Shown here: positions 1 to 52,642 of the stretch, piece by piece
Layout of the letters: the number at the start of each line of letters is the position of its first letter
Position numbering within the stretch: position 1 is the stretch's first letter
Assembly: GCA_041651155.1 (NCBI GenBank)
Contig: JBAZJU010000001.1
Coordinates: forward strand, 167,619-231,618
Origin: Patescibacteria group bacterium
Lineage (GTDB): Bacteria > Patescibacteriota > Patescibacteriia > CAIXNZ01
Reading direction: 5' to 3'
Length of the DNA: 64,000 nucleotides
Notes under the pieces: generated by a model
Database searches by the model: none
What the model was told of the DNA's origin: nothing
The model's input: the letters and a program-made list of their open reading frames with translations, nothing else
Position numbers and translations under genes: made by a program

Positions 1-564
1 GCAATATATTACATTGTAATCAAGACAAAAAATAATTACCCATATTTTAAAGAGAATATTTTTTGCGATTCGTTTATTGAGGATTTGAAAATTTGTAAAT
101 CATTGAAAGGTTTTAAGTTATACGCCTTTTCTATTATTTACGATCATGTGAATTTGATAATTAAACCGAATAATCAATTTAATATTTCCAAGATCATTAA
201 ATCATTGAAAGAAAACGTGTCAAGGAATATAAATATTATAATGGGTTATACGTTTAATCAAAATTCCCCGCTCTTCGTAGGCGAAACGACGTCGTTTCGC
301 CTACGAAGGAAGAGGATGAGACTATTTAATCTATTTAAGGGGAATTTTGATGATTCAAATGAAGGGAAAATAGATATTGCTCATTATAAAAAAGGATTTA
401 TAACGAAATTTGGTGATAAAAATAATTACCCAAAATTCAAATGGCAATTATCATTTTACGACCATTATATCCGTTTTCACGATAATCATTTGAAAAAGCA
501 AGGGGATTGGCCTTCGCCAACCGAAGTTGGCTTCGGCCAACGAAGGTTGGGATTATCATTTTGA
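1..564 (+). CDS. IS200/IS605-family Y1 (HUH) transposase / RAYT-like; 5' end lies off-window; probably degenerate
   Basis: Frame is open from base 1 (AIYYIVIKTKNNYPYF resembles the N-terminal beta-strand YHxVxxxKYR). YDHVNLII is a HuH-like motif with the second His replaced by Asn. WQLSFYDHYIRFHDNH matches the catalytic-Tyr region of IS200 TnpA. The ORF is interrupted in-frame by a 36-bp palindrome and ends in a REP-like palindrome. Confidence 0.5.
   Translation, partial: AIYYIVIKTKNNYPYFKENIFCDSFIEDLKICKSLKGFKLYAFSIIYDHVNLIIKPNNQFNISKIIKSLKENVSRNINIIMGYTFNQNSPLFVGETTSFRLRRKRMRLFNLFKGNFDDSNEGKIDIAHYKKGFITKFGDKNNYPKFKWQLSFYDHYIRFHDNHLKKQGDWPSPTEVGFGQRRLGLSF
273..308. repeat. 36-bp perfect palindrome inside the RAYT-like ORF
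   Basis: cttcgtaggcgaaacgacgtcgtttcgcctacgaag is self-complementary, read directly. Confidence 0.85.
507..550. repeat. REP-like compound palindrome (family B); inverted copy at 26943-26986
   Basis: ttggccttcgccaaccgaagttggcttcggccaacgaaggttgg equals the reverse complement of 26943-26986 with 2-3 mismatches. Confidence 0.75.
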
Positions 565-672
565 ATACACGGTTTATAACCATTTAAAGCACGGTTTGCC
601 GGGAAATTGGCAATATACAAGTTTAAATTATCCGGAGTTAATTGATAATATTGAAATTTAATTTTAAAAATT

Positions 673-20691: not shown

Positions 20692-20709
20692 TGCGAATCT
20701 TCGAATAAT

Positions 20710-20731
20710 GCCTGCCTGCCGGCAGGCAGGC
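20710..20731. repeat. GC-rich perfect palindrome gcctgcctgccggcaggcaggc (second copy at 33566-33585)
   Basis: Read directly; flanked by cgaat..ttcgaataa direct words. Confidence 0.8.
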
Positions 20732-20851
20732 GAATGTTTCGAATAAAATTCCTTAGAAATAGGGGCTTTTATTTTTATATAAAATGTGATAAAATATAAT
20801 CAAAATATACCTAAGTTATAAATTTTAAATTAAAAATTAAAAATTAATTCC

Positions 20852-28902: not shown

Positions 28903-28946
28903 AAGCCCCAGAGCGATTTTTTCACTCTGGGGTTTTTGTTTTTTAC
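28903..28946. terminator. bidirectional intrinsic terminator
   Basis: gccccagagcgattttttcactctggggttttt. Confidence 0.65.
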
Positions 28947-29788
28947 TCGGGTTTTTTGGCAAGATGTCTGCTGCCGCAGTGTTCGCAGACAACCATTATT
29001 TCTTCCTGGCGGTTAAATTCCCGATTCAGTTCTTTGGAAATTTTCATGCTTTTTTGGCAGTTGCCGCACCGGAAATAACCTTTGCCCAAAAACTGAAATT
29101 CAGGTCCGTCTTTGATGCCGACTGAAAATAAATACTCCAGCCAGGCGGCAATTGCAAGAACGTAAGATTGCCAGTTGCCCTCGAAATTTCTCCACAGCCT
29201 GTCAATCAGCTTTTCCTGTTTTTCGTTTCTGGCTTTTTTGGATGCATCCCAGTAGGTTTTTACACTGGGGACAGCGACAGACTCCATCAAGGTAATAGTT
29301 TCCTTGAGGCCAAGCTCATCACTGAGTATTTGTTGCGCTAATTTTTCAATTTCATGCGCAGTCTCAAGATTGTCAATGTGGCGCAGGATGGGCGCATAAA
29401 AGTCGCGTTCTTTTTCTTCGGCTGTTTTTTGCTTGGCTGTCAGGTTTTCTATAAGCCTGACTTTAAGCACTCCCCGGTGAGGATTTTCAGGCAGAGTATC
29501 TTGAATCACACGACAGCGCCATTCTTCCTCATCTCGCGGTAAATAACCTTCCCAGTTTACGGCTTTTTCCGGCCCGTAGCCATAGATAAAAACTATTTTT
29601 GTTCTGGCCGGATCATGTTTGGCAGAATCCTGCTTTACAATACCTTTAATTTGGGTTTCCTCTGCGCGATAAAAAACAACTGTAACGATTTCATCTTCCT
29701 GAGGTTGGGGTCTCATTTTTTCTTTTCCTCGGTATTCAGAAAAGGGTTCTACGACTCCATTTTCCCCAATTCCATACACTTCCATCAC
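28943..29788 (-). CDS. hypothetical protein with C-terminal CxxC..CxxC zinc ribbon; visibly GC-richer than neighbours
   Basis: CGNCQKS..CEHCGS; no family recognised. Confidence 0.4.
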   Translation of the reverse strand: MMEVYGIGENGVVEPFSEYRGKEKMRPQPQEDEIVTVVFYRAEETQIKGIVKQDSAKHDPARTKIVFIYGYGPEKAVNWEGYLPRDEEEWRCRVIQDTLPENPHRGVLKVRLIENLTAKQKTAEEKERDFYAPILRHIDNLETAHEIEKLAQQILSDELGLKETITLMESVAVPSVKTYWDASKKARNEKQEKLIDRLWRNFEGNWQSYVLAIAAWLEYLFSVGIKDGPEFQFLGKGYFRCGNCQKSMKISKELNREFNRQEEIMVVCEHCGSRHLAKKPE

Positions 29789-29888: not shown

Positions 29889-29896
29889 TTAAATAA

Positions 29897-29930
29897 AAAG
29901 AACATGCCACTCTTGGCATGTTCTTTCTCT
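29897..29930. terminator. hairpin gaacatgccactcttggcatgttc (shares the tgccactcttggca core with the hairpin at 30229-30262)
   Basis: A-run upstream and T-rich downstream, so bidirectional terminator-like. Confidence 0.5.
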
Positions 29931-29932
29931 TG

Positions 29933-30164
29933 TGACCCGGCCCCAAAGGGGAGCCTTCGGCTTTGGGGTAGGATGTTTCGTTTTTGATTTATTTATGACC
30001 CGGCCCCAAAGGGGAGCCTTCGGCTCTGGGGTAGGATATTTCGTTTTTGATTTATTTGTGACCCGGCCCCAAAGGGGAGCCTTCGGCTCTGGGGTAGGAT
30101 ATTTCGTTTTTGATTTATTTGTGACCCGGCCCCAAAGGGGAGCCTTCGGCTCTGGGGTTCGAAC
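29933..30164 (-). repeat. tandem array of 4 x 63 bp: decayed tRNA 3'-end remnants each carrying GC hairpins (gagccttcggctc, ccccaaagggg)
   Basis: Units start at 29933, 29996, 30059 and 30122. On the minus strand each ends CCGGGTCA, identical to the tRNA-Lys acceptor 3' end; unit 4 additionally retains a GTTCGAA T-loop. Confidence 0.8.
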
Positions 30165-30198
30165 TCCCACCTTCGCTTTGCTACTGCGGGCAGGCAGG
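30165..30198. repeat. inverted repeat, left arm (partner at 30416-30452), flanking tRNA-Lys
   Basis: tcccaccttcgctttgctactgcgggcaggcagg versus the reverse complement of 30416-30452, gctcccgccttcgcaccttgtgctatggcgggcaggcag. Confidence 0.65.
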
Positions 30199-30228
30199 AC
30201 TAATACATTTTCATTAAAACAGAGGGTC

Positions 30229-30262
30229 TAAAAAAGCTTGCCACTCTTGGCAAGCTTTTTAA
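30229..30262. terminator. bidirectional intrinsic terminator downstream of tRNA-Lys
   Basis: aaaaaagcttgccactcttggcaagcttttt. Confidence 0.7.
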
Positions 30263-30265
30263 ATA

Positions 30266-30338
30266 TGACCCGGCTGGGGTTCGAACCCAGGACCCTCTGC
30301 TTAAAAGGCAGATGCTCTACCAGCTGAGCTACCGAGTC
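30266..30338 (-). tRNA. tRNA-Lys (anticodon UUU)
   Basis: Minus-strand sequence GACTCGGTAGCTCAGCTGGTAGAGCATCTGCCTTTTAAGCAGAGGGTCCTGGGTTCGAACCCCAGCCGGGTCA folds as a canonical cloverleaf; no CCA encoded. Confidence 0.9.
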
Positions 30339-30415
30339 GTATATGTAATTTTATAACTTCTCATTATTAAAAGTAAAGGTAGCGAAGCTGGCTGTCAATC
30401 ATAAATAATTTAAAG

Positions 30416-30452
30416 CTGCCTGCCCGCCATAGCACAAGGTGCGAAGGCGGGA
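30416..30452. repeat. inverted repeat, right arm (partner at 30165-30198)
   Basis: See left arm. Confidence 0.65.
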
Positions 30453-30466
30453 GCTACCAAGTCGTA
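30453..30466 (-). pseudogene. tRNA 5' fragment (acceptor plus D-stem 5' strand, GACTTGGTAGCTC), similar to the tRNA-Lys 5' end
   Basis: The reverse complement of 30453-30466 resembles GACTCGGTAGCTC of tRNA-Lys; the rest of that tRNA is absent. Confidence 0.35.
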
Positions 30467-30575
30467 AAAATTTAAAATGCAAAATGCAAAGTTTAAAGTT
30501 ACAGTTTTAAATTAAAAATTTTTAATTTTTGTTTGTAATTTTTAATTTCGCATTTTGAATTTTTAATTTTTTTGT

Positions 30576-30647
30576 TGCGGGGGCCGGACTTGAACCGGCG
30601 ACCTCCAGGTTATGGGCCTGGCGAGCTGCCAACTGCTCTACCCCGCG
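30576..30647 (-). tRNA. tRNA-Met (anticodon CAU); C1·A72 mismatch suggests initiator tRNA-fMet
   Basis: CGCGGGGTAGAGCAGTTGGCAGCTCGCCAGGCCCATAACCTGGAGGTCGCCGGTTCAAGTCCGGCCCCCGCAA; the anticodon loop is CCCAUAA with C at position 33, which is unusual. A tRNA-Ile2 (lysidine) role cannot be excluded. Confidence 0.75.
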
Positions 30648-33369: not shown

Positions 33370-33565
33370 TTTCTGTCCTCCTTAATTTAATAATAAATAC
33401 ATAATTGCTTTTAGTCAACCTCGCTTTTTGCGAAGTGAAGTGCAGGATCAAGGTTGATTTGGCTAAATAATTATGTTAGAATGCTTATATCTTTAATTGA
33501 AACGAATATACTAATCTCATACTAATGATACTAATATTTATTACTTTTTTGATTAGTATTATTAG

Positions 33566-33585
33566 CCTGCCTGCCGGCAGGCAGG
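33566..33585. repeat. GC-rich perfect palindrome cctgcctgccggcaggcagg (copy of 20711-20730)
   Basis: Read directly; flanked by an AT-rich dyad of tactaat / attagta words. Confidence 0.8.
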
Positions 33586-33611
33586 CAAAATATTAGTAAA
33601 TTAGTATCCTT

Positions 33612-34931
33612 ATGAAAGCATTACTCAAAAAATTAATACCAAGAAATTTAATTCTGAAATTCCATAAAGCGGAAGCTGTTATGGCTAATTATCGTTATGG
33701 CTTTCCATCCAACGAATTGATTGTGATTGGCGTAACCGGCACCAATGGCAAATCAACAACTTGCAATTTAATTGCCAAGATCTTGGAAGAAAGCGGGGCC
33801 AAAGTCGGCTTAATGACCACGGTTAATTTTAAAATTGCCGGCCAGGAATGGTTAAATGATACGCACATGACCATGCAGGGCAGAGTTACTTTGCAAAAAA
33901 TGCTGTGGCAAATGGTTAAAGCCGGCTGTCAGTATGCAATCATAGAAACTTCGTCTGAGGGAATTATGCAGCACAGAAATTGGGGGATTAATTATGATGT
34001 GGCCGTCTTTACCAATTTAACTCCGGAGCATATAGAAGCCCATGGCTCGTTTGAAAATTATAAAAAAGCTAAAGGAACATTATTCGCCAATTTATTTAAA
34101 TTTCGCCGTAAGAAAATTAATGGCCAGCTAATCCCCAAAACTTCAGTGGTTAATTTAGATGACGAACATTGGCAGTATTATTTTGATTTCTCAGCTGATA
34201 AAAAATACCTTTATGCCATTAACCACCAGGGTAAATTACCAGAGGCAGAAGTGCTGAGGGCAGGGGATATTTCCTTAAAAATGGATGGCACATTTTTCAG
34301 AATCGGGCTTGATGATATACAGACCAATTTAATCGGTAATTTTAATGTTTATAATTGTTTAGCTGCGATTTGCGTAGCGCGTAATTTTGGCATCTCAATG
34401 GAGCAATGTAAACAAGCCTTGGTTAAAGTGACCGGCGTGCCTGGCAGAATGGAAGCCATTAATGAAGGCCAGAATTTCAATGTTTTAATTGATTACGCGC
34501 ATGATCCGGCATCTTTTGCCATTATTTTTGAAACAATAAAATTTTTTCCTAAAAAAAGAATTATTCATGTCTTTGGTTCAGCCGGCGGCGTGCGCGATCA
34601 TGTTAAACGTCCGGTTTTGGGCAAACTTTCTGGACAGCATGCTGACGTGACAATTATTACTGATGAGGATTCTTATGATGAACCGACAGAGAAGATTTTA
34701 AATGAAATTGCAGCTGGTGCGATTGAGGCAGGGAAAATTGCCAATGAAAATTTATTTAAAATTCCTGATCGCCGCGAGGCCATAAAATTTGCCTGCCAGA
34801 TGGCACAAGCAGGGGATTTGGTTTTGATTACTGGCAAGGGCACTGAACAAAGCATTAAATCAAATGGGCAGGAAATGCCATGGGATGATCGGTATGTAAC
34901 GAGGGAGGTTTTGAAAGAAATTCTTGGTTAA
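33612..34931 (+). CDS. murE: UDP-N-acetylmuramoyl-tripeptide ligase
   Basis: GVTGTNGKSTT; Mur ligase central and C-terminal domains. Confidence 0.85.
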   Translation: MKALLKKLIPRNLILKFHKAEAVMANYRYGFPSNELIVIGVTGTNGKSTTCNLIAKILEESGAKVGLMTTVNFKIAGQEWLNDTHMTMQGRVTLQKMLWQMVKAGCQYAIIETSSEGIMQHRNWGINYDVAVFTNLTPEHIEAHGSFENYKKAKGTLFANLFKFRRKKINGQLIPKTSVVNLDDEHWQYYFDFSADKKYLYAINHQGKLPEAEVLRAGDISLKMDGTFFRIGLDDIQTNLIGNFNVYNCLAAICVARNFGISMEQCKQALVKVTGVPGRMEAINEGQNFNVLIDYAHDPASFAIIFETIKFFPKKRIIHVFGSAGGVRDHVKRPVLGKLSGQHADVTIITDEDSYDEPTEKILNEIAAGAIEAGKIANENLFKIPDRREAIKFACQMAQAGDLVLITGKGTEQSIKSNGQEMPWDDRYVTREVLKEILG

Positions 34932-40974: not shown

Positions 40975-41053
40975 GAATTTGAGCGGGATAGGAGAATCGG
41001 ACATGAATTAGGTATATTCTCAATTGCCTGCCCGCCGTAGCAATTAAGTTGTA

Positions 41054-41124
41054 AGCGATGGACGGGAATCGGACCCGCATTATCTGCTTGGGAAGCAGAT
41101 GTACTACCACTGTACTACCATCGC
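41054..41124 (-). tRNA. tRNA-Gly (anticodon CCC)
   Basis: GCGATGGTAGTACAGTGGTAGTACATCTGCTTCCCAAGCAGATAATGCGGGTCCGATTCCCGTCCATCGCT; T-loop is TCCGATT, slightly atypical. Confidence 0.75.
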
Positions 41125-41187
41125 ATAAAATATTGCGAAGGCGGGGGAAGGTCATGTACTGCCACTATACTAATCCCGCAGGGCGAA

Positions 41188-42165: not shown

Positions 42166-42288
42166 TTATCTCTGCAAATAATTAAATTTTAGATTTAAAT
42201 TAGTGCCTGCCCGCCGACCTGTCCACCGAAGCAATAGCGCAGGTGGAAGTTTAAACGAAGGCAGGATAAATAATCCGTGTTTTAACAC

Positions 42289-44384: not shown

Positions 44385-44528
44385 TGCTCCTGAAGGGAAT
44401 TGAACCCCCATCTCCAATTGTTTGAATTCCTTTTGTTTAGCCTATGTACACTTAGCTAAGCCGGGATCAAACAATCTCCCAGTTGGGAGGCGTGCCTAGC
44501 CGTTGTTTTGCCATTAAACTACAAGAGC
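44385..44528 (-). ncRNA. 144-nt tRNA-like gene: intact acceptor stem, D-arm and T-arm, anticodon arm replaced by ~85 nt folding into two hairpins
   Basis: 5' GCTCTTG-TA-GTTT-AATGGCA-AAAC .. 3' GGGGG-TTCAATT-CCCTT-CAGGAGC-A. Insert hairpins: ctccc-aact-gggag, and ttgtttga..tcaaacaa enclosing ttagc..gctaa. No canonical anticodon stem-loop found. Confidence 0.4.
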
Positions 44529-45683: not shown

Positions 45684-45701
45684 TGTATTTATTTTTTATT
45701 G

Positions 45702-45773
<72 letters not shown>

Positions 45774-45982
45774 ATGGTGATTAATGACAAATGATCAATA
45801 ATCAATAATCAAACAATTTTTAAATTCAAAATTCAAATGTTTAAACTTTGTGTAATTAGTAATATTTATTCAACAAAAATAAAAAAAGAACAAGGTTCTA
45901 TTATTGATATTATAGGGTAAAAATTAGGGAAAGTCAATGGTAGTTGGCGTTTTTTCATATTAAGAATTCATTAAATTTTCAA

Positions 45983-46011
45983 TTGACTTAGCGAGTTTTT
46001 GGGCGTAAAAT
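45983..46011 (+). promoter_or_regulatory. sigma70-like promoter (TTGACT-17-TAAAAT) upstream of the R-M cluster
   Basis: Hexamers and spacing read directly. Confidence 0.45.
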
Positions 46012-46274
46012 GAGATTAAATAAATAAAATTTTAAGTTCTAAAATATGGACAAAAAACGCATTATGCAAAATAAAACTGATGTTGAGCTGGCCAATGATA
46101 AATTGAAGAAAAGCGCTGGCTAAGCTGGCGGCTAATTTTAAAGTTGTTAACGGCTGGCAAAAAAGTGAGCAGGATATTGAAACCAGCTTTACTTTCGAAG
46201 TAAAAAACTATAAAATATAAGTACAATATATACTCCGTTAGGTTCAATTTGGAGCCTATAAAGCTTATCTTATA

Positions 46275-47156
46275 ATGGCTAAAAAAAATAAAAAATTTAC
46301 ATTTATAGACCTATTCGCTGGTATAGGCGGTTTTCATTTTGCTTTCCATAATTCAGGAGCAGAATGTGTTTTTGCAAGTGAGTGGGATAAATATGCAAGG
46401 CAAACTTATGAACGTAATTTCGCTAAAATTCAGCCCGAACTTTTTAAATCAGGAAATTTCGCAGGTGATATTACTAAGGTGAAACCAAAAAATATCCCCG
46501 ACTTTGATATAATTTGCGGCGGATTTCCGTGTCAGCCTTTCAGTCAGGCAGGATTCAAAAGAGGTTTTGAAGATAATAGAGGAAGCCTTTTTTTTCATAT
46601 AGCGGAATTAATCAGGAATAAGAAACCCAAGGCATTTTTTCTTGAAAATGTAAGGCATCTTTTTAAACATGATGACGGAAAAACATTTTCTGCAATAAAA
46701 AACGTAATTGAAAAAGATTTGGGTTATTCTTTTTATTATAAAATTGTTAAGGGCACAGATTTTAATGTTCCTCAACACAGGCCGCGTTTGTTTATGGTCG
46801 GTTTTAGAAATAAAAAAATCCCCTTTAATTTTCCTGAGCCGAAGAAACTAACAAAAACAATGTCTGATATCTTCGGTGCGCCATGTGAAAAAAATGTCGG
46901 TTATACTTTAAGAGTAGGCGGTCGGGGATCTGCTATAACCGATAGGCGAAATTGGGATTCTTATAAGGTAAACAGTAAAATTGTAAGATTAGGAGTTAAA
47001 GAAGGTAAAAAAATGATGGGGTTGCCTTACAATTTTGTTTTTCCCGTTTCTGATGCACAAGCAATGAAACAACTGGGAAATGCCGTTGTCGTACCTGCAA
47101 TAAGCGCTGTTGCACAAGAGATTATAAAGACATTAAATAAATATTATGCCGATTAA
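46275..47156 (+). CDS. DNA (cytosine-5)-methyltransferase
   Basis: Motif I FAGIGGF, IV GGFPCQPFSQAG, VI ENVRHL, VIII QHRPRLFMVGF, X LGNAVVVP; a short target-recognition domain implies a short recognition site. Confidence 0.9.
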   Translation: MAKKNKKFTFIDLFAGIGGFHFAFHNSGAECVFASEWDKYARQTYERNFAKIQPELFKSGNFAGDITKVKPKNIPDFDIICGGFPCQPFSQAGFKRGFEDNRGSLFFHIAELIRNKKPKAFFLENVRHLFKHDDGKTFSAIKNVIEKDLGYSFYYKIVKGTDFNVPQHRPRLFMVGFRNKKIPFNFPEPKKLTKTMSDIFGAPCEKNVGYTLRVGGRGSAITDRRNWDSYKVNSKIVRLGVKEGKKMMGLPYNFVFPVSDAQAMKQLGNAVVVPAISAVAQEIIKTLNKYYAD

Positions 47157-48234
47157 AGGTAATAAGGGGGAATGGAGCGAATTTTACGCTTTTATTAAAA
47201 TTTTAGCGGATAAATATTTACACGCCGCCGATGAAGACCTGAACGTTCTTGAGCAGGTCTTTTATCCCGTTTATAAAATAATCAGGGAAGAGGCTGCAGC
47301 AGGTAAAATAGAATTTGATATCAAGGCAGATACAGATAATATAAAAATTACGGACTCTTCTAATAATATTATGTTGGTTCATGTTACTGATCTTGATAAA
47401 AAGGCAAAGAAATTGTTTTCAGTCATAAAAAATTCAGATAAAAGGACATTCTCCATCCCTTTGGGAGCAGAGTTGATGGAAAAATTAAAATGTACTCAGA
47501 TAAAGGCCAATAGCGGAAGAAAATCAGATATAAAATTGTTAATACATGATTTTAGGTATGAACAGGATACAGAAGTAGGATTTAGCATTAAATCTCTGGT
47601 AGGCTCTCCCGCAACTCTTTTAAATGCGTCTGGATCTACTAATTTTGTTTATCGGGTTGAAAATATTTCCGATGTTGATGTTAAAGCAATTAATAATATT
47701 AAAACCAGGTCAAAAATAAAAGATCGATTGCAGGCAATTATTACGCGACATGGAAAGTTGTCTTTCACATCTTTAACATCTGATATTTTTGAACATAATT
47801 TAAGAAATATTGATACGATTTTACCTGAAATTTTATCCAATTTATTGTTGGCAAATTTTATGGGTCACGGTTCCTTACTTACTGAGTTAACTGAATATTT
47901 AGGAGCCAACGTTAATGAGTTAAGGGGATTTAGTCTTGATGAGACGGGATATAAAATTAAGTTAAAAAATTTTTTACATAATATAGCCTTGGGAATGATG
48001 CCTAATACTGAATGGGACGGATTATTGCAGGTTCATGGAGGTTATATAATAGTTAAAGAAAACGGTGAAATCGTATGTTATCATATTTTTAACCAGGATG
48101 AATTTCAGAATTATTTATTTAAAAATACGAGGCTGGATACGCCAAGTACTACCAGGCACGGATTTGGTGAAATATACAAAGAAGGAGAAAATTATTTTAT
48201 TAAACTTAATCTGCAGATTAGGTTTAATCACTAG
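47146..48234 (+). CDS. putative type II restriction endonuclease; HpaII-like is my from-memory guess at the family
   Basis: 11-nt overlap with the methyltransferase stop, followed by vsr; the N-terminus NKGEWSEFYAF resembles the HpaII REase family as I recall it. Confidence 0.5.
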   Translation: MPIKGNKGEWSEFYAFIKILADKYLHAADEDLNVLEQVFYPVYKIIREEAAAGKIEFDIKADTDNIKITDSSNNIMLVHVTDLDKKAKKLFSVIKNSDKRTFSIPLGAELMEKLKCTQIKANSGRKSDIKLLIHDFRYEQDTEVGFSIKSLVGSPATLLNASGSTNFVYRVENISDVDVKAINNIKTRSKIKDRLQAIITRHGKLSFTSLTSDIFEHNLRNIDTILPEILSNLLLANFMGHGSLLTELTEYLGANVNELRGFSLDETGYKIKLKNFLHNIALGMMPNTEWDGLLQVHGGYIIVKENGEIVCYHIFNQDEFQNYLFKNTRLDTPSTTRHGFGEIYKEGENYFIKLNLQIRFNH

Positions 48235-48237
48235 TTT

Positions 48238-48651
48238 ATGACTGATCGTATTACAAAAGAACAAAGATCCAGGAATATGTCCGCAGTTAAAGCCAAGGGA
48301 AACAAAACAACTGAAATTAAAGTAGTTAAATATTTTAAAAATAAAGGGATAACGGGCTGGAGAAGACATAATAAGAAAATATTCGGTAATCCGGACTTTG
48401 TCTTTTTAAAGGACAAAGTCGTTATATTTATTGACGGATGTTTTTGGCATGGTTGTCCTTACCATTATCATGTCCCGAAAACAAACAAAAAATTCTGGAA
48501 TGCAAAAATAAAGGCTAATAAAAAAAGGGGTAAAATCGTGAACAGCGTTTTAAGAAAAAACAATTGGACGGTTGTGAGAGTCTGGGAACATCAGCTAAAA
48601 AAAGATCAGCCATTTTATCTTGAGAAAATAAGAAAACTTTTACTAAAATAA
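48238..48651 (+). CDS. vsr: very-short-patch-repair endonuclease Vsr
   Basis: TKEQRSRNMSAVKAKGNKTTE..FVFLKDKVVIFIDGCFWHGCP. Confidence 0.85.
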   Translation: MTDRITKEQRSRNMSAVKAKGNKTTEIKVVKYFKNKGITGWRRHNKKIFGNPDFVFLKDKVVIFIDGCFWHGCPYHYHVPKTNKKFWNAKIKANKKRGKIVNSVLRKNNWTVVRVWEHQLKKDQPFYLEKIRKLLLK

Positions 48652-48711
48652 GTTGTATAAATTGGGATGAGGGATTAAATTAGTTGAGGATAAATAAAAT
48701 AATGGTTATTA

Positions 48712-48742
48712 AGCGCCCCGCTCAGCATTACGGGGCATTTTT
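48712..48742. terminator. intrinsic terminator after vsr
   Basis: gccccg ctcagcatta cggggc followed by attttt. Confidence 0.65.
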
Positions 48743-48756
48743 AGATTAAAAATTGA

Positions 48757-48933
48757 TTAAATTTTTGCTTGACTTGGGAGCATGTAAAGAATAAAATTGA
48801 AGTAATGTTATTAAACAAAACTCCTGAATCCCGCGAGAAAAACAAGACCAGGATTGAGGCAGTGGATTATGAGATTGATAAGATGGTAAGTAAACTATAT
48901 GGTTTGAGTGAGAAAGATATGAAGATTATCTAG
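48757..48933 (+). pseudogene. C-terminal remnant of an N6-adenine methyltransferase with TaqI_C-type tail (type IIG / PglX / Eco57I-like)
   Basis: ..REKNKTRIEAVDYEIDKMVSKLYGLSEKDMKII* matches the conserved C-terminal pattern IDxLVYxLYGLTEEEIxIIE; no upstream catalytic domain is present. Confidence 0.45.
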
Positions 48934-48944
48934 GGAAAATTTTT

Positions 48945-51209
48945 ATGAAAATAAACTTAAATCAGAAGCAAAGAATAATTGTGGCAATTATATATCTAGC
49001 CATACTGTCTTTAATTTTTTATCTACTTGGTGGAAACTTAAAGCAATTAGCTTGGGACAGTAGTTATGACTCTAGTATTTGGTTTTATGCTGGAGCGTTT
49101 ATGATAATACTTGGGACTTATATCGTTGAACCATATTTCACTAAGCCTTCCGACGCAATAGCTAATTCAACGGCTATTCTTATAGCATTGTTTGGGCTAT
49201 CTGCAAAGCAAGATCTATTGGGATATTCTTTTATATTTTACTATGCTGTTAGCATCTTGATTCTGAGCATATTAACCATTTTCCTAAAAGACTCAAAGAA
49301 TATATTCTGGTTAAAATTTTCAAAGGTGACTTATTGGATTGTTGAAACATTCGGAACCTCAAAAGTAATTTTTTCTATTATATATTTATCTGCAAGTTAT
49401 TCATATTTCGCACAACAAAATAAAATAATCCCATTCATTAGTATCGTAGCTTTTTGGATTTGCTTAACTTTTTTTGATGTTATCAGTTTAATTGTTGAAA
49501 ACTTTTCAAGATTTATCAATTTAATTAAAAACAAACCTGGGGAGGAATTAGGCCAGGCTATTGGCTGTGAAAATCCGCTTCTTTATAAGGTGGAAATAGA
49601 TTATTTAAAGCATAAACCATGTGCGATAAAATATGGCGATTTAGTTGCCTTGGAAACATCTATCAATGTTGGCTCAATAGGTATGGTTGTAGATATACAG
49701 TATCTCTTAAACAAAAGATGGTTAAGTATATATCTTTTGCAAGACGAAAATGGCGACATTCTAGAAATAAATTTAAAAGATAAGAAATTGATAACGGAGC
49801 CAAAATCAATTTTTACAAAAGAAAATCTCGTATATCTTTTAGACATCTCTACAATTACAGATGAATCTCTGAAAACAAAAATTGGAAGTAACCCTCTATA
49901 CAAAAATAAAGAGCAATTTATTGGGTATGTTTCCAGCGGTTCAAACATAAATACACTAAATTTTTCAATTATCAGAGAAACAAACAAGCTCGAGCAGAAA
50001 ATTAGTGAAGGGGTGATTCTAAAAACTTTAATTTACGGACAAGAAACGCTTTATCAAGTTATAAATGGCAATGCAAAGGAAGAACAGCTTGAGAATTTTG
50101 ATCGACATGGTTTCATAATCGGCATCGCTAGAAAATTAGGCAAATACAAAAAAGACACTAAGGATTTAGATGTAAGTAAATGGATGCCTTCGAATTTCTC
50201 CCCACTTTTCTATGCATTTTCTGGTAGTGTTTCGGAAACGAGAGTAAAAGAAATTGCACAGAATTCTATTGGTCGTCTTCCTGATACGGATTTAGAAATT
50301 CCACTTAAAGATCCAAATGCTATTGTTACTCACAATACTGCGATTTTAGGAATTTTAGGAATAGGTAAGTCCTGCCTCACCTTTGAGATTATTAAGAAAA
50401 TAATTGCAAATACAGAAAGTAAGGTTATTTGTCTTGATATAACAAACGAATATTTTGATGAGCTTGTTGCTTATGGATGTGAACCCCAGATACTACCTGA
50501 CGTAGAGATCCAACTGGTATTAAATCCTAATTATGAAGCAATAAATAAAGACATTTACAAAGGCGGTAATCATGCCCAGTTTAGACAAAAAATAACTGAG
50601 TTGATTAAAACATTTTTTGACGGAGCAAATAAGCTATTGATTATAAATCCTGAGGTCTACGATGTTAGTAAGCAAACAAATGATGTAAAAGCAAAAAAAA
50701 TTGGTCCTGGCCCAAATGACTGGCAGGATCAAGCACCAATGGTAGATCTTACTTTGGTTGAGAAAACCAGAATTATAGCAGAAGTAATTTTAGAATATTC
50801 AAAAGGGAGGGGAAAATCCCAAAGTGCTAGATGTCTTTTAGTTTTTGAGGAAGCTCATTCCCTTGTTCCTGAATGGAACTCAGTCGCAAGCGAAGGTGAT
50901 AAAAGTGCTACAAATGGAACAGCTAAAGTTATATTGCAAGGTAGAAAATATGGCTTGGGAAGCATGGTTGTCACTCAAAGAACTGCGAATGTAAGTAAAA
51001 GCATCCTCAACCAATGCAACACAATTTTTGCTTTACGAGTTTTCGATGACACAGGAAAGGGATTTTTGGAAAATTATATTGGCAAGGATTATGCCGATAC
51101 TCTGGCAACTCTTGAGGAGAGACACGCTATTGCTATTGGCAAAGGGTTAAAATTAAAACAACCCGTTATAATCCAATTAAATAATAGAGAGGATATTATA
51201 GAGAATTAG
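48945..51209 (+). CDS. multi-TM membrane-anchored HerA/FtsK-like P-loop ATPase (DUF87-type)
   Basis: ~190-aa N-terminal region with 5-6 hydrophobic helices; Walker A AILGILGIGKS; Walker B / HerA-type LLVFEEAHSLVP; VVTQRTANVS. Confidence 0.6.
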   Translation: MKINLNQKQRIIVAIIYLAILSLIFYLLGGNLKQLAWDSSYDSSIWFYAGAFMIILGTYIVEPYFTKPSDAIANSTAILIALFGLSAKQDLLGYSFIFYYAVSILILSILTIFLKDSKNIFWLKFSKVTYWIVETFGTSKVIFSIIYLSASYSYFAQQNKIIPFISIVAFWICLTFFDVISLIVENFSRFINLIKNKPGEELGQAIGCENPLLYKVEIDYLKHKPCAIKYGDLVALETSINVGSIGMVVDIQYLLNKRWLSIYLLQDENGDILEINLKDKKLITEPKSIFTKENLVYLLDISTITDESLKTKIGSNPLYKNKEQFIGYVSSGSNINTLNFSIIRETNKLEQKISEGVILKTLIYGQETLYQVINGNAKEEQLENFDRHGFIIGIARKLGKYKKDTKDLDVSKWMPSNFSPLFYAFSGSVSETRVKEIAQNSIGRLPDTDLEIPLKDPNAIVTHNTAILGILGIGKSCLTFEIIKKIIANTESKVICLDITNEYFDELVAYGCEPQILPDVEIQLVLNPNYEAINKDIYKGGNHAQFRQKITELIKTFFDGANKLLIINPEVYDVSKQTNDVKAKKIGPGPNDWQDQAPMVDLTLVEKTRIIAEVILEYSKGRGKSQSARCLLVFEEAHSLVPEWNSVASEGDKSATNGTAKVILQGRKYGLGSMVVTQRTANVSKSILNQCNTIFALRVFDDTGKGFLENYIGKDYADTLATLEERHAIAIGKGLKLKQPVIIQLNNREDIIEN

Positions 51210-51253
51210 TATCTTTTGAAAGCAAGGTTAGATACATAAGAAATTCTTTTATT

Positions 51254-52642
51254 ATGAAACAAAAAGATGCTCTAGAAATTTTAAAGATGGGGTATAATGT
51301 TTACTTAACCGGAGCGGCCGGCAGCGGCAAAACTTATTTATTAAATAAGTACATTGAATATTTAAGGGGAAATAATATTCCCGTGGCCGTTACGGCTTCT
51401 ACTGGTATTGCAGCTACTCATATGAATGGACGTACTGTTCATTCGTGGTGTGGTATGGGTATAAACATGAAAATGAATAAGAGCCAGATTAGCGAATTAG
51501 CTGATAAAGACTATATCTATAGTAATATTACCAATACCAAGGTATTGATTATTGATGAAATTTCAATGCTTCATGCATCACAACTGGACTTGGTTAACAA
51601 TATCTGTAAAAATTTAAGAGATAATGATATTCCATTCGGCGGTATGCAGGTTATACTATGCGGTGATTTTTTTCAGTTACCTCCAGTTAGCAAGGGGAAT
51701 GATCTTGGAAAATTTATTACAGAATCAGATATCTGGAGTGAAATGGACTTAAAAGTTTGTTATTTATCTGAACAATACCGGCAAGATGACCATCAATTTA
51801 TTAAAATTTTAAAAAATGTAAGAGCCAATCAGGTCGATCAAGAAGCCTTAAAATTACTTAAAAGTAGAATAAACGCTGAAATCAAAACTGATTTACAAAT
51901 AACAAAATTATATTCGCACAATATCGATGTAGATCGAATTAATGATATGGAGCTGAATAAGATTTCCCAGGAACCGAAAGAATTTGAGATGCATAGTGAA
52001 GGCAAGAATCAGAAAATAATTGAAACCCTGAAGGGCTCCTGCCTGGCTCCAGAAAAATTAATATTGAAAAAAGGGGCTATGGTCATGTTTGTAAGGAATA
52101 ATTTTTCCAATGGTTATGTAAATGGAACCTTAGGTAAAGTAATTAACTTTGACGATGATACCGGCTGTCCTATCATTAAAACTTTTAAGGGCGATAGGAT
52201 TATTGCTTATCCCGAAACATGGAAAATTGAAGAAAATTATAATGTACTCGCCCAAATAAGCCAAATACCTCTTCGATTGGCATGGGCAATAACAATTCAC
52301 AAAAGTCAAGGTATGAGTTTGGATGTAGCTGAAATTGATTTAAGCAAATCTTTCGCTTACGGCATGGGATATGTTGCATTATCTAGAGTAAAATCTTTAT
52401 CAGGAATAATCCTTAAAGGTTTGAATGATATGGCTTTGAAAATTGATGAAAATATTTTAAGAATTGATAAAGATTTGATGGAAATGTCCCAAAATTTTTT
52501 AAAAGAATATCTATGTATGTCAAAGAAAGGTATTAAACAGATTCAGGATAATTTTATTAAAGAAAATGCCGAGATACCAGGGGATTGTGAAAATGAATAT
52601 TGTGATTGTGACGAAGTAAAGTTAGAAGATATCCCTTTTTAA
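51254..52642 (+). CDS. Pif1/RecD-family SF1B helicase
   Basis: Walker A LTGAAGSGKT; VTASTGIAATHMNGRTVHSW; LIIDEISML; ILCGDFFQLPPV; C-terminal ITIHKSQGMSLD. Confidence 0.75.
   Translation: MKQKDALEILKMGYNVYLTGAAGSGKTYLLNKYIEYLRGNNIPVAVTASTGIAATHMNGRTVHSWCGMGINMKMNKSQISELADKDYIYSNITNTKVLIIDEISMLHASQLDLVNNICKNLRDNDIPFGGMQVILCGDFFQLPPVSKGNDLGKFITESDIWSEMDLKVCYLSEQYRQDDHQFIKILKNVRANQVDQEALKLLKSRINAEIKTDLQITKLYSHNIDVDRINDMELNKISQEPKEFEMHSEGKNQKIIETLKGSCLAPEKLILKKGAMVMFVRNNFSNGYVNGTLGKVINFDDDTGCPIIKTFKGDRIIAYPETWKIEENYNVLAQISQIPLRLAWAITIHKSQGMSLDVAEIDLSKSFAYGMGYVALSRVKSLSGIILKGLNDMALKIDENILRIDKDLMEMSQNFLKEYLCMSKKGIKQIQDNFIKENAEIPGDCENEYCDCDEVKLEDIPF

What the first reader, a model, noticed from the sequence alone, without database searches (positions are those of the whole stretch)
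29897..30466. Rearranged tRNA locus: 4 x 63-bp tandem tRNA-3'-end remnants, and an intact tRNA-Lys nested between ~35-bp inverted repeats inside what looks like a split older tRNA
Reading the minus strand in order:
- tRNA-Met, then a 14-nt tRNA 5' fragment (GACTTGGTAGCTC).
- Inverted-repeat right arm, then an intact tRNA-Lys, a terminator, and the inverted-repeat left arm.
- A pseudo-tRNA 3' part with a T-loop (GTTCGAA) and acceptor 3' end CCGGGTCA, then three further truncated copies of that 3' end at exact 63-bp spacing, then a second terminator sharing the tgccactcttggca core.

Details of the remnants and repeats:
- Every remnant carries the same two GC hairpins (gagccttcggctc, ccccaaagggg) inserted between the T-stem and acceptor 3' strand.
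- The inverted repeats (30165-30198 / 30416-30452; core cccRccttcgc..gcgggcaggcagg) bound a ~290-bp segment containing the functional tRNA-Lys.
- The segment is placed exactly between the 5' and 3' fragments of the decayed tRNA.

Interpretation:
- Duplicated tRNA 3' ends are the classical scars of integrase-mediated insertion/excision at tRNA genes.
- An inverted-repeat-bounded segment carrying a replacement tRNA inside a disrupted tRNA is unusual.
- The ORF-track entries 29889-30170(-) and 29932-30231(+) are artefacts of translating this array.
Basis: seen in the sequence. Interest (0 to 1): 0.65.

Follow-up and report, generated by a model that had tools for sequence, protein, structure and literature searches.

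The report
Recombination-scarred tRNA-Lys locus in Patescibacteria
The odd repeats next to this tRNA-Lys gene are real, but comparison with related genomes shows they are layered leftovers of several separate insertion and duplication events at tRNA genes, not one inverted-repeat cassette and not a conserved RNA gene.

Summary
The minus strand reads tRNA-Met, a 13-nt tRNA-Lys 5' fragment, a GC hairpin, an intact tRNA-Lys(UUU), a terminator, a second GC hairpin in inverted orientation, a T-loop/3'-end remnant, four 36-nt remnant cores at 63-bp spacing, and a second terminator.

The genome is a Patescibacteria MAG. Ten syntenic relatives show the locus is hypervariable:
- Two are clean (Met-Lys-terminator).
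- One has only the 5' fragment and right arm.
- Five have only a 3' remnant with the left arm.
- Two carry a different 3' insertion.

So the two "inverted-repeat arms" arose separately. They are copies of a dispersed GC-rich palindromic repeat, with six copies in the window, several of them absent at orthologous sites in relatives. The 63-bp array is unique to this genome.

Junctions fall at the T loop, the T/acceptor junction and the anticodon loop. These are the known crossover subsites of tRNA-targeting integrases, yet no integrase is present.

Eleven kb away a foreign tRNA-Gly(CCC) really is nested inside the disrupted ancestral tRNA-Gly. This recalls phage tRNA-dependent lysogency.

Best reading: miniature integration and recombination scars plus local tandem amplification. 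One 30-nt block is unexpectedly conserved and remains unexplained. Interest is moderate.

The parts
30574..30647 (-). tRNA-Met(CAU), intact; first gene of the tRNA operon
   Evidence: ARAGORN; Rfam 60.2 bits
30467..30573 (-). AT-rich imperfect palindrome (55-nt arms, 80% complementary) separating tRNA-Met from the tRNA-Lys 5' fragment. Relatives L001, L004 and L013 have only 4-6 nt here. It is 94% identical in L019.
   Evidence: (I1)
30451..30466 (-). TAC + GACTTGGTAGCTC: duplicated 5' end (nt 1-13) of tRNA-Lys. It forms a direct repeat with 30326-30341.
   Evidence: (D6); also present in L019 as GACCCGGTAGCTC
30416..30452 (-). Right arm: a GC hairpin repeat copy, CCCGCCTTCGC-ACCTTGTGCTATG-GCGGGCAGGCAG. 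It abuts the 5' fragment.
   Evidence: 91% identical insert in L019
30348..30398 (-). Promoter-like region brought in with the 5' insertion: TTGACA at 30398..30393, and TTTACT-18-TAAAAT at 30377..30348
   Evidence: sequence
30266..30338 (-). Intact tRNA-Lys(UUU), acceptor type GACTCGG/CCGGGTC
   Evidence: (72.3 bits)
30230..30260 (-). Terminator 1: the palindrome AAAAAGCTTGCCAAGAGTGGCAAGCTTTTTT
   Evidence: I11, D4
30199..30228 (-). Conserved block GACCCTCTGTTTTAATGAAAATGTATTAGT. It is 92-95% identical in four other lineages. Its first 14 nt are the reverse complement of tRNA-Lys nt 35-48.
   Evidence: (I10)
30166..30198 (-). Left arm: a GC hairpin repeat copy in the opposite orientation, CCTGCCTGCCCGC-AGTAGCAAA-GCGAAGGTGGG. 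It abuts the T-loop remnant.
30122..30165 (-). Displaced tRNA-Lys 3' fragment. It consists of the T loop and T-stem 3' strand (AGTTCGAACCCCAG), a 22-nt double-hairpin insert at the T/acceptor junction, and the acceptor 3' strand CCGGGTCA.
   Evidence: (D9)
29933..30158 (-). Tandem array: four 36-nt cores (CCCCAG + hairpins + CCGGGTCA) separated by three 27-nt AT-rich spacers. Period is 63 bp. The array is unique to this genome.
29894..29926 (-). Terminator 2, the ancestral-type trailer CAAGAGAAAGAACATGCCAAGAGTGGCATGTTCTTTTT. It aligns with the single terminator of L019.
40982..41179 (-). Parallel case. The locus reads, in order: ancestral tRNA-Gly(CCC) nt 1-35 (41179..41145); CCCGCCTTCGC; a foreign complete tRNA-Gly(CCC) (41124..41054); GGCGGGCAGGCA; the ancestral T loop and 3' end (41001..40982).
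42204..42265 (-). Another copy of the hairpin repeat, between the DPBB-domain gene and ftsE. These genes are 4-7 nt apart in relatives.
33565..33587 (.). Palindromic form of the repeat, GCCTGCCTGCCGGCAGGCAGGC, upstream of murE and flanked by ATTAGT/ACTAAT hexamers. Absent from L001 and L004.
20709..20732 (.). Second palindromic copy, 18 nt after the stop codon of an aminotransferase gene

Best explanation
The locus is a palimpsest of at least four separate DNA-level events at a tRNA gene. They happened in a Patescibacteria clade whose tRNA genes are recurrent recombination targets.

1. An old insertion at the T loop of tRNA-Lys left this order of parts: intact tRNA, terminator 1, a conserved ~30-nt block, a GC hairpin repeat, the displaced T-loop-to-3'-end fragment, and the original terminator 2. 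This is the signature of site-specific integration into a tRNA gene, here with the element reduced to about 100 bp.
2. A 22-nt double hairpin was then inserted at the T/acceptor junction of the displaced fragment.
3. That remnant plus 27 nt of trailer was amplified locally into four tandem 63-bp units, by slippage or unequal recombination.
4. Independently, on the 5' side, a ~110-bp insert carrying another copy of the GC hairpin repeat and a promoter duplicated the first 13-16 nt of the gene.

The remnants are most likely not functional RNAs. The intact tRNA-Lys is the working gene.

Shown here: the anatomy, the independence of the events, and the presence/absence polymorphism.

Inferred: integrase involvement, the order of events, and the lack of function.
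For: - States of the locus. Clean sites occur in L013 and L020. The 3' feature alone occurs in L001, L008, L014 and L016 (alignment). The 5' feature alone occurs in L019. A second kind of 3' insertion, with a 12-15-nt direct repeat CCAGCCGGRTCA, occurs in L004 and L028.
- Relation to phylogeny. These states are interleaved on the neighbour-gene tree.
- The array is private to this genome. Window 30265..~29935 is simply missing from L019, while the rest of the tRNA locus is 87-100% identical.
- Junction positions. They fall at the T loop (Lys, Gly, and Met in L028), at the T/acceptor junction (L004, L028, L001, and the window hairpin insert), and at the anticodon loop (Gly left junction). These match the three crossover subsites listed for tDNA-targeting integrases (PMC4383910).
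- Allele turnover. tRNA-Lys acceptor alleles do not follow the tree, and L014 carries a type-II gene with a type-I remnant.
- A parallel case. The Gly locus shows true replacement: the old 5' half is 35/35 identical to L024, the old 3' end is 19/20 identical to L026, and the new gene is only 45-50/71 identical to relatives.
- The arms are copies of a dispersed repeat. The motif occurs 9 times against 0.58 expected, and copies are absent at orthologous sites in relatives.
- No RNA-gene signal. There is no tRNA or ncRNA model hit on the remnants, and fold z-scores for the unit are only -1.5 to -1.8.
Against: - No tyrosine integrase, transposase or other recombinase is present in the 64-kb window or between any tRNA and its fragment.
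- The intervals are 100-330 bp, far below any known island.
- The ~30-nt block next to terminator 1 is 92-95% identical across lineages whose flanking genes are 50-85% identical. Decaying scars should not be this conserved.
- The 5' break after nt 13 fits no known integrase subsite.
- A perfect GC hairpin abuts every displaced fragment. The scar model does not predict this.
- No donor element was found in viral or phage collections.
Confidence: 0.55

Rival explanations
1. The GC-rich hairpin repeats are themselves small non-autonomous mobile elements, REP/MITE/PATE-like. They insert into the loops and junctions of tRNA genes, or of other GC hairpins, through a single-strand or hairpin-specific enzyme encoded elsewhere. 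The partial tRNA duplications are by-products of their insertion and repair, with no integrase involved.
For: - There are six copies in 64 kb.
- Copies are absent at orthologous sites in relatives: DPBB-ftsE, upstream of murE, and the Gly locus.
- Several inserts sit right after TTCG, either in a T loop or in the hairpin's own loop.
- One copy lies at the T/acceptor junction of L001.
- The hairpin terminus always abuts the tRNA fragment.
- Generic GC-rich perfect hairpins are otherwise rare in the window.
Against: - No RAYT, IS200/IS605 or IS110-type gene is present in the window.
- No clear terminal repeats or target duplications appear at the non-tRNA copies.
- The copies are heterogeneous in length and sequence.
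- This model does not explain why whole 3' ends plus terminators are duplicated, nor the foreign tRNA-Gly.
Confidence: 0.2
2. The region downstream of tRNA-Lys is a functional structured RNA co-transcribed with the tRNA operon. It would comprise the conserved block, GC hairpins, and a tRNA-like T-arm/acceptor 3' end. Possible roles are a tRNA-mimic (minihelix) module that titrates or recruits tRNA-processing enzymes, or an antisense partner of tRNA-Lys nt 35-48. The array would multiply that module.
For: - The block is 92-95% conserved in five lineages, while the adjacent terminator stems change by compensatory substitutions.
- There is 14-nt complementarity to an invariant part of tRNA-Lys (I10, 109).
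- The L001, L016 and L014 versions fold far better than shuffles, with z-scores of -8.3, -4.4 and -4.2.
- In the window, GACCC pairs with GGGUC to close a tRNA-like stem, and each unit folds as a small stem with a 3' CA tail.
Against: - The feature has been lost cleanly in L013, L019 and L020, and replaced by an unrelated insert in L004 and L028.
- The array is absent everywhere else.
- No promoter was found, and a strong terminator precedes the region.
- The proposed acceptor pairing is not maintained: there is a C-A mismatch in L001 and L014, and the first pair is lost in L008 and L016.
- The stems are perfect palindromes, as in young DNA insertions, not co-varying helices.
- There is no Rfam hit.
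Confidence: 0.13
3. One reading: one mobile segment bounded by ~35-bp inverted repeats, carrying tRNA-Lys with its own promoter and terminator, inserted into and split an older tRNA-Lys.
For: - The arrangement in the window fits formally.
- The Gly locus shows that a complete tRNA flanked by the two halves of the same hairpin motif can sit inside a disrupted ancestral tRNA.
- The other lineages could in principle derive from a window-like ancestor by deletions between direct repeats.
Against: - The right arm with the 5' fragment occurs without the left arm (L019). The left arm with the 3' remnant occurs without the right arm, in four lineages including the most basal.
- Old nt 14-53 are missing, so this is not a simple insertion.
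- L001-type genomes keep only 4-6 nt between tRNA-Met and tRNA-Lys. A window-like ancestor with its 107-nt spacer would not yield that.
Confidence: 0.06
4. The 63-bp array is a guide-RNA array (TIGR or CRISPR-like) serving the adjacent 281-aa protein.
For: - TIGR arrays occur in Patescibacteria and can be stem-loop arrays (PMC12045711).
- An uncharacterised protein with a zinc ribbon lies immediately downstream.
Against: - The units are 96-100% identical, with no variable spacers.
- The protein has no Nop domain, and its model matches nothing significantly (best TM 0.22).
- Genomes with the same protein lack the array.
Confidence: 0.01

Closest known systems
Genomic islands or prophages integrated in tRNA genes by tyrosine integrases (the Islander signature: intact tDNA plus displaced 3' fragment)
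   Same: - An intact tRNA is followed by a co-oriented displaced 3' end fragment.
- Fragment edges lie at the T loop, the T/acceptor junction or the anticodon loop.
- Occupied and empty sites both occur among relatives.
- Several fragments occur in series, as in tandem islands.
   Different: - The interval is 0.1-0.3 kb instead of 2 kb or more.
- There is no integrase and no cargo.
- The serial fragments are a 63-bp tandem repeat, not separate islands.
- Part of the remnant is conserved across lineages.
tRNA-dependent lysogeny (Guerrero-Bustamante and Hatfull 2024, PMC10865867)
   Same: - A host tRNA is disrupted and not rebuilt at the junction.
- A complete tRNA of the same isotype lies within the inserted DNA. 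This is clearly so for tRNA-Gly(CCC) at 41179..40982.
- The published case also concerns tRNA-Lys(UUU).
   Different: - There is no prophage, integrase or repressor here.
- The insert is only ~145 bp and holds little besides the tRNA.
- 17 nt of the old gene are missing.
- The host is a Patescibacterium rather than an actinobacterium.
REP/BIME, MITE and PATE-type dispersed palindromic repeats
   Same: - They are short GC-rich imperfect palindromes in intergenic DNA of an AT-rich genome.
- They are multi-copy.
- They are present or absent at orthologous sites.
- They occur singly, in inverted pairs and as perfect palindromes.
   Different: - No associated RAYT or transposase was seen.
- The copies are strongly associated with tRNA gene break points.
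- One copy encloses a whole tRNA gene.
CIMEs and site-specific accretion at tRNA-linked att sites (Streptococcus ICE literature; from my own knowledge)
   Same: - These are non-autonomous remnants flanked by att-like repeats.
- They persist next to the target and can be re-targeted, giving serial att copies.
   Different: - CIMEs are kilobases long and have defined att sites.
- Here nothing shows mobility in trans.

Membership tests
tDNA-integrated island (Islander criteria, PMC4383910) | Intact tRNA gene plus a co-oriented end fragment of the same tRNA on the correct side | tested here: met
   tRNA-Lys at 30338..30266 is followed downstream by AGTTCGAACCCCAG...CCGGGTCA on the same strand (D9). 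The same holds in L001, L008 and L016.
tDNA-integrated island (Islander criteria, PMC4383910) | Fragment edge at the anticodon loop, the T loop or the T/acceptor junction | tested here: met
   - T loop: Lys in the window, L001, L008 and L016; Gly in the window; Met in L028.
- T/acceptor junction: L004, L028, and the second insert of L001.
- Anticodon loop: the Gly left edge.
- Sources.
- The 5' fragment edge at nt 13 does not fit any subsite.
tDNA-integrated island (Islander criteria, PMC4383910) | Integrase gene inside the interval; interval of 2-200 kb | tested here: not met
   The interval is ~100-330 bp with no real ORF. No Phage_integrase or recombinase domain occurs in the window proteins tested.
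tDNA-integrated island (Islander criteria, PMC4383910) | Empty site in related genomes | tested here: met
   L013 and L020 have tRNA-Lys followed directly by a single terminator.
tRNA-dependent lysogeny | The host tRNA is split and not reconstituted, and the insert carries a complete tRNA of the same isotype | tested here: met
   At the Gly locus, old nt 1-35 and 54-73 flank a complete tRNA-Gly(CCC) that is 45-50/71 identical to relatives' genes. For the Lys locus itself the test is inconclusive, because the 5' and 3' events are separable.
tRNA-dependent lysogeny | A temperate phage with a tyrosine integrase lies between the junctions | tested here: not met
   Only ~145 bp (Gly) or ~290 bp (Lys) lie between the fragments, and there are no phage genes.
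REP/MITE-like dispersed repeat | Multiple similar palindromic copies, with presence/absence variation at orthologous sites | tested here: met
   The motif occurs 9 times against 0.58 expected. Copies at 33565, 42204 and the Gly locus are absent in relatives.
REP/MITE-like dispersed repeat | Cognate transposase (RAYT or an IS family), or terminal inverted repeats with a target-site duplication | tested here: inconclusive
   No such gene is present in the 64 kb. The rest of the genome was not available. No clear target duplication appears at 42204-42265.
TIGR/CRISPR-type guide array | Repeats interspaced with variable spacers, and an adjacent Nop-domain (Tas) or Cas protein | tested here: not met
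   The units are 96-100% identical. The neighbouring protein has no Nop domain and gives no significant fold match.
tRNA gene or pseudogene | Recognised by a tRNA covariance model or ARAGORN | tested here: not met
   Nothing is reported for 29897-30265 or 30400-30470, even at E<=10.
Conserved non-coding RNA gene | Own promoter, conservation of sequence and structure with covariation, and expression | tested here: inconclusive
   - No promoter was found.
- One 30-nt block is conserved, but the structured parts are not alignable between lineages.
- Expression is not testable with these tools.

The most novel reading that the evidence does not exclude
This Patescibacteria clade harbours a previously undescribed class of miniature tRNA-targeting cassettes. 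They are 100-300 bp units whose recombination site is the GC hairpin plus the ATTAGT-containing block. They insert at tRNA T loops and junctions, can be re-targeted and amplified, and can carry a complete replacement tRNA that supplants the essential single-copy host gene, as seen for tRNA-Gly(CCC). This would be a gene-replacement or addiction mechanism for tRNAs in minimal genomes, mobilised by an enzyme encoded elsewhere in the genome or by a phage.
Probability: 0.2. Interest if true: 0.7.

Novelty: new variant of a known kind. Interest (0 to 1): 0.48.

Why it matters
Patescibacteria have minimal, mostly single-copy tRNA sets, so any event that breaks a tRNA gene should be lethal unless a replacement arrives with it.

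This window shows that tRNA-Lys, tRNA-Gly and (in a relative) tRNA-Met loci of one clade are repeatedly broken, patched and even replaced by foreign alleles. The traces left are only a few hundred base pairs long.

If the process is site-specific, three things follow:
- It would extend tRNA-dependent integration beyond actinobacteriophages.
- It would show how far integrated elements can be reduced.
- It would warn annotators that standard island finders, which require an integrase and at least 2 kb, miss such scars.

It also documents a GC-rich palindromic repeat family in a CPR genome.

If the remnants are merely scars, the finding is a useful but ordinary example of tRNA-locus plasticity.

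Tried and rejected
- TIGR/CRISPR-like array: rejected. The units are identical and there is no Nop-domain neighbour.
- tmRNA, Y-RNA-like or any other Rfam family over the remnants: no hit.
- Real ORFs over the array: no family above cut-off, and the DNA is absent in relatives.
- Phage or viral donor:
  - The conserved 23-mer gave 0 hits in IMG/VR.
  - The hairpin motif hit only GC-rich chance matches.
  - The new tRNA-Gly 5' half gave 0 hits.
  - INPHARED blastn gave only generic tRNA similarity.
- Genome-collection scan with the block+hairpin pattern: one true relative (L008) and one chance hit inside purA.
- Metagenome scan with the terminator pattern: only contigs already known.
- Integrase or transposase in the window: none found by Pfam or PHROGs among 33 proteins tested.
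- Acceptor-stem pairing between the conserved block (GACCC) and the remnant 3' strand: not maintained across lineages.
- Conserved small ORF across the block: the reading frames are not conserved (by inspection).
- Folding of the whole array: uninformative, because the units pair with each other.
- General GC-hairpin terminators as an explanation for the hairpins: perfect GC hairpins are rare in the window.
Full report
**1. What is in the sequence**

Read on the minus strand, the region contains the following, in order:
- tRNA-Met(CAU) at 30647..30574.
- A 107-nt AT-rich imperfect palindrome.
- TAC+GACTTGGTAGCTC at 30466..30451. This is the first 13 nt of a tRNA-Lys, and it forms a 16-nt direct repeat with the start of the intact gene (D6).
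- A GC hairpin, CCCGCCTTCGC...GCGGGCAGGCAG, at 30452..30416.
- A promoter-like stretch.
- An intact tRNA-Lys(UUU) at 30338..30266.
- A palindromic terminator at 30260..30230.
- A 30-nt AT-rich block at 30228..30199.
- A second GC hairpin of the same family in inverted orientation, at 30198..30166.
- A T-loop/T-stem remnant, AGTTCGAACCCCAG.
- A 22-nt double hairpin, then CCGGGTCA.
- Three more copies of CCCCAG + hairpins + CCGGGTCA at exact 63-bp spacing. TRF gives period 63, 3.6 copies, 97% matches. The core occurs 4 times against 0 expected.
- A second terminator at 29926..29894, 81% identical to the first (D4).

Neither ARAGORN nor the Rfam tRNA model sees the remnants, even at E<=10.

**2. 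Organism and context**

The neighbouring proteins are FtsW, MurG, an NDP-sugar nucleotidyltransferase, a 281-aa hypothetical protein, a P-type ATPase and MurE. The 281-aa protein is recorded as WC460_01045 of a "Patescibacteria group bacterium" MAG on a 348-kb contig. GC content is 31-41%. No integrase, transposase or other recombinase domain was found among 33 window proteins tested against Pfam and PHROGs.

**3. Comparative series**

Using the neighbour genes, I fetched syntenic loci from ten related lineages. The states are:
- *Clean.* L013 has Met, 5 nt, Lys and one terminator, and nothing else. L020 is likewise clean.
- *3' feature of type alpha.* L001/2/3, L008, L014 and L016 have Lys, terminator 1, the conserved block, GC hairpin(s), a T-arm-like remnant, CCGGRTCA and terminator 2 (alignment). 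In L001 and L016 the remnant T loop carries a 39- or 51-nt insert of perfect GC hairpins right after TTCG. L001 has a further hairpin-repeat copy at the T/acceptor junction. L014 has lost the T arm.
- *3' feature of type beta.* L004/L006 and L028-L030 have an unrelated ~100-nt insert ending in CAATCGGCCCCGCACTTGAG..GCGAATAGTGCGRCGGCCAG. It is flanked by a 12-15-nt direct repeat, CCAGCCGGRTCA, and there is no extra terminator.
- *5' feature only.* L019/L018 have Met, the same AT-rich spacer (94% identical), GACCCGGTAGCTC, the right-arm hairpin and promoter (91% identical), Lys and a single ancestral-type terminator. There is no left arm and no remnant.
- *The window* has both the 5' and the alpha features, plus the 63-bp array.

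A pairwise profile of the window against L019 shows 87-100% identity across the tRNA locus and a clean ~330-nt gap covering window 30265..~29935. On a neighbour-gene tree the states are interleaved: L008 (alpha) is sister to L013 (clean), L001 (alpha) is sister to L004 (beta), and L016 (alpha) is basal.

**4.

The right arm with the 5' fragment, and the left arm with the 3' remnant, occur separately in different lineages. The [quoted passage not shown] is therefore a coincidence of two independent events, not one mobile unit.

The arms are two copies of a dispersed GC-rich palindromic repeat. GCGGGCAGGCAGG with up to 2 mismatches occurs 9 times in the window against 0.58 expected. Other copies are:
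- Between the DPBB-domain gene and ftsE, at 42204-42265. These genes are 4-7 nt apart in L024 and L026.
- As perfect palindromes at 20709-20732 and 33565-33587. The latter is absent from L001 and L004.
- Split around tRNA-Gly (see section 5).

Otherwise, perfect GC-rich hairpins are rare in the window. The end of the repeat is followed by (A)CTAATA.., so the GTATTAGT end of the conserved block belongs to the repeat.

**5. A true nested replacement 11 kb away**

On the minus strand, 41179..40982 reads as follows:
- GCGGGATTAGTATAGTGGCAGTACATGACCTTCCC.
- CCCGCCTTCGC AATATTTTAT.
- A complete tRNA-Gly(CCC), GCGATGG.., at 41124..41054.
- TACAACTTAATTGCTAC GGCGGGCAGGCA ATTGAGAATATACCTAATTCATG.
- TCCGATTCTCCTATCCCGCT.
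- 7 nt, then tRNA-Thr.

In L024, L026 and L029 the same position holds a single intact tRNA-Gly(CCC), 5-6 nt upstream of tRNA-Thr. The outer 5' piece is 35/35 identical to L024's gene, and the outer 3' piece is 19/20 identical to L026's. The inner gene is only 45-50/71 identical to any relative.

So an ancestral tRNA-Gly was broken in the anticodon loop and at the T loop, with nt ~37-53 lost, and a foreign same-anticodon tRNA sits inside it, flanked by the two halves of the hairpin motif. It parallels tRNA-dependent lysogeny, in which a phage disrupts a single-copy host tRNA (there tRNA-Lys-UUU) and supplies its own copy (PMC10865867). Here, however, no phage is left.

**6. Further signs of recurrent events**

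In L028, tRNA-Met is followed by a 61-nt GC-hairpin insert containing CCCGCCGGCAGGCAGG and then by a duplicate of its own 3' end, CAAGTCCGGCTCCCGCAA, which starts in the T loop.

tRNA-Lys acceptor alleles fall into two types: GGTCCGG/CCGGATC and GAC(C/T)CGG/CCGGGTC. They are interleaved on the tree. L014 has a type-II gene but a ..GGATCA remnant, which implies allele replacement.

**7. Mechanism**

The fragment edges lie at three kinds of position:
- The T loop: Lys alpha, Gly, Met.
- The T/acceptor junction: Lys beta, the second insert in L001, and the window's 22-nt hairpin.
- The anticodon loop: the Gly left edge.

These are the three crossover subsites reported for integrases that target tRNA genes, and an intact gene plus a displaced co-oriented 3' fragment is their signature (PMC4383910).

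I therefore favour site-specific integration events whose elements have been reduced to 0.1-0.3 kb. These were followed by secondary hits on the displaced fragment, which still carries the target core, and in this genome by tandem amplification of one remnant unit.

Integrase involvement is an inference. No integrase is present, the 5' break at nt 13 fits no subsite, and the intervals are far below any described island.

**8. What does not fit**

- The 30-nt block after terminator 1 is 92-95% identical among the window, L001, L008 and L014. Meanwhile the adjacent terminator stems differ by compensatory changes, and flanking genes are 50-85% identical at the DNA level.
- The first 14 nt of the block are the reverse complement of invariant tRNA-Lys nt 35-48 (I10).
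- A perfect GC hairpin abuts every displaced fragment.
- Some versions fold far better than shuffles. L001 has z = -8.3, but this comes from perfect palindromes rather than co-varying helices. The window unit has z of only -1.8.

These points keep two rivals alive: a hairpin-specific mobile repeat and a functional tRNA-linked RNA module. Arguing against function are the clean loss of the feature in three lineages, the absence of a promoter, and the failure of the putative acceptor pairing to be maintained.

**9. Other readings tested**

A TIGR-type guide array was considered, because such arrays occur in Patescibacteria (PMC12045711). It was rejected for three reasons:
- The units are identical.
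- The 281-aa neighbour has no Nop domain.
- Its AlphaFold model (pLDDT 67) has no significant PDB match; the best has TM 0.22 and is S1/eIF2alpha-like.

No viral or phage donor was found.

**10. Verdict**

The central claim of a single inverted-repeat-bounded cassette is wrong.

The locus is a new variant of a known kind, namely tRNA-gene integration and replacement scars. It is unusual for its miniature size, the 63-bp amplification, the associated GC hairpin repeat family, and the parallel tRNA-Gly replacement in a minimal genome. Interest is moderate at 0.48. The most novel reading not excluded is active miniature tRNA-replacing cassettes, which I put at about 0.2.

Noticed in passing
window 40982-41179 (-): The ancestral tRNA-Gly(CCC) is split. 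Its nt 1-35 and 54-73 are retained (35/35 and 19/20 identical to relatives). It encloses a complete foreign tRNA-Gly(CCC) that is only 45-50/71 identical to relatives' genes, flanked by the two halves of the CCCGCC..GGCGGGCAGGCA hairpin.
   Followed up: yes
window 44385-44528 (-): A 144-nt tRNA-like gene (Rfam tRNA 39 bits) has a normal acceptor stem, D arm and T arm, but 90 nt of hairpins where the anticodon arm and variable region should be. It has its own TTGACA-17-TAATTT promoter and a terminator. No counterpart was found at the same place in L024 or L026.
   Followed up: partly
window 33480-33625: The perfect palindrome GCCTGCCTGCCGGCAGGCAGGC lies 25 nt upstream of the murE start. It is surrounded by seven ATTAGT/ACTAAT hexamers, which looks like a protein-binding array. 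It is absent from L001 and L004.
   Followed up: partly
window 42204-42265 (-): A 62-nt hairpin-repeat copy is inserted between the DPBB-domain gene and ftsE. These genes are 4-7 nt apart in relatives.
   Followed up: yes
window 30467-30573: A 107-nt AT-rich palindrome (55-nt arms) lies between tRNA-Met and the tRNA-Lys 5' fragment. It is 94% identical in L019, although flanking genes are far more diverged. Relatives L001, L004 and L013 have 4-6 nt here.
   Followed up: partly
window 45701-52642; L024 8604-8936: tRNA-Gln is followed by an island with M.HpaII-type methylase, HpaII endonuclease, Vsr, a HerA/DUF87-like ATPase and a PIF1-like helicase. In relative L024 a 495-aa large serine recombinase abuts tRNA-Gln instead.
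   Followed up: no
L028 7200-7346 (-): tRNA-Met is followed by a 61-nt GC-hairpin insert and then by a duplicate of its own T-loop-to-3'-end sequence, CAAGTCCGGCTCCCGCAA. This is the same scar type on a third tRNA species.
   Followed up: partly
L008 1-118: The contig starts inside the tRNA-Lys locus with 118 nt of GC-rich structured sequence in the place where the tRNA 3' end is expected, just before terminator 1. It has no match to anything else fetched and could be the edge of a larger insert.
   Followed up: partly
window 28943-29788 (-): A 281-aa protein is conserved in only four clusters of the 5.8-billion-protein database. It has no Pfam family and a C-terminal CxxC..CxxC zinc ribbon. 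Its model faintly resembles an S1/eIF2alpha-like barrel plus a helical domain. The gene is present or absent independently of the tRNA scars.
   Followed up: partly
window 541-575; L024 6770-6805; L029 7310-7345: A second GC-rich hairpin family, CCAACCTTCGTTGGCCGAAGCCAACTTCGGTTGGC, recurs in intergenic regions of several of these genomes.
   Followed up: no
L014 1169-1202: A hairpin-repeat-like sequence, CCTGCCTTCGTTTACGCTTCGGCAGACAGGCAGGG, lies inside the called radical-SAM/UPF0004 gene.
   Followed up: no
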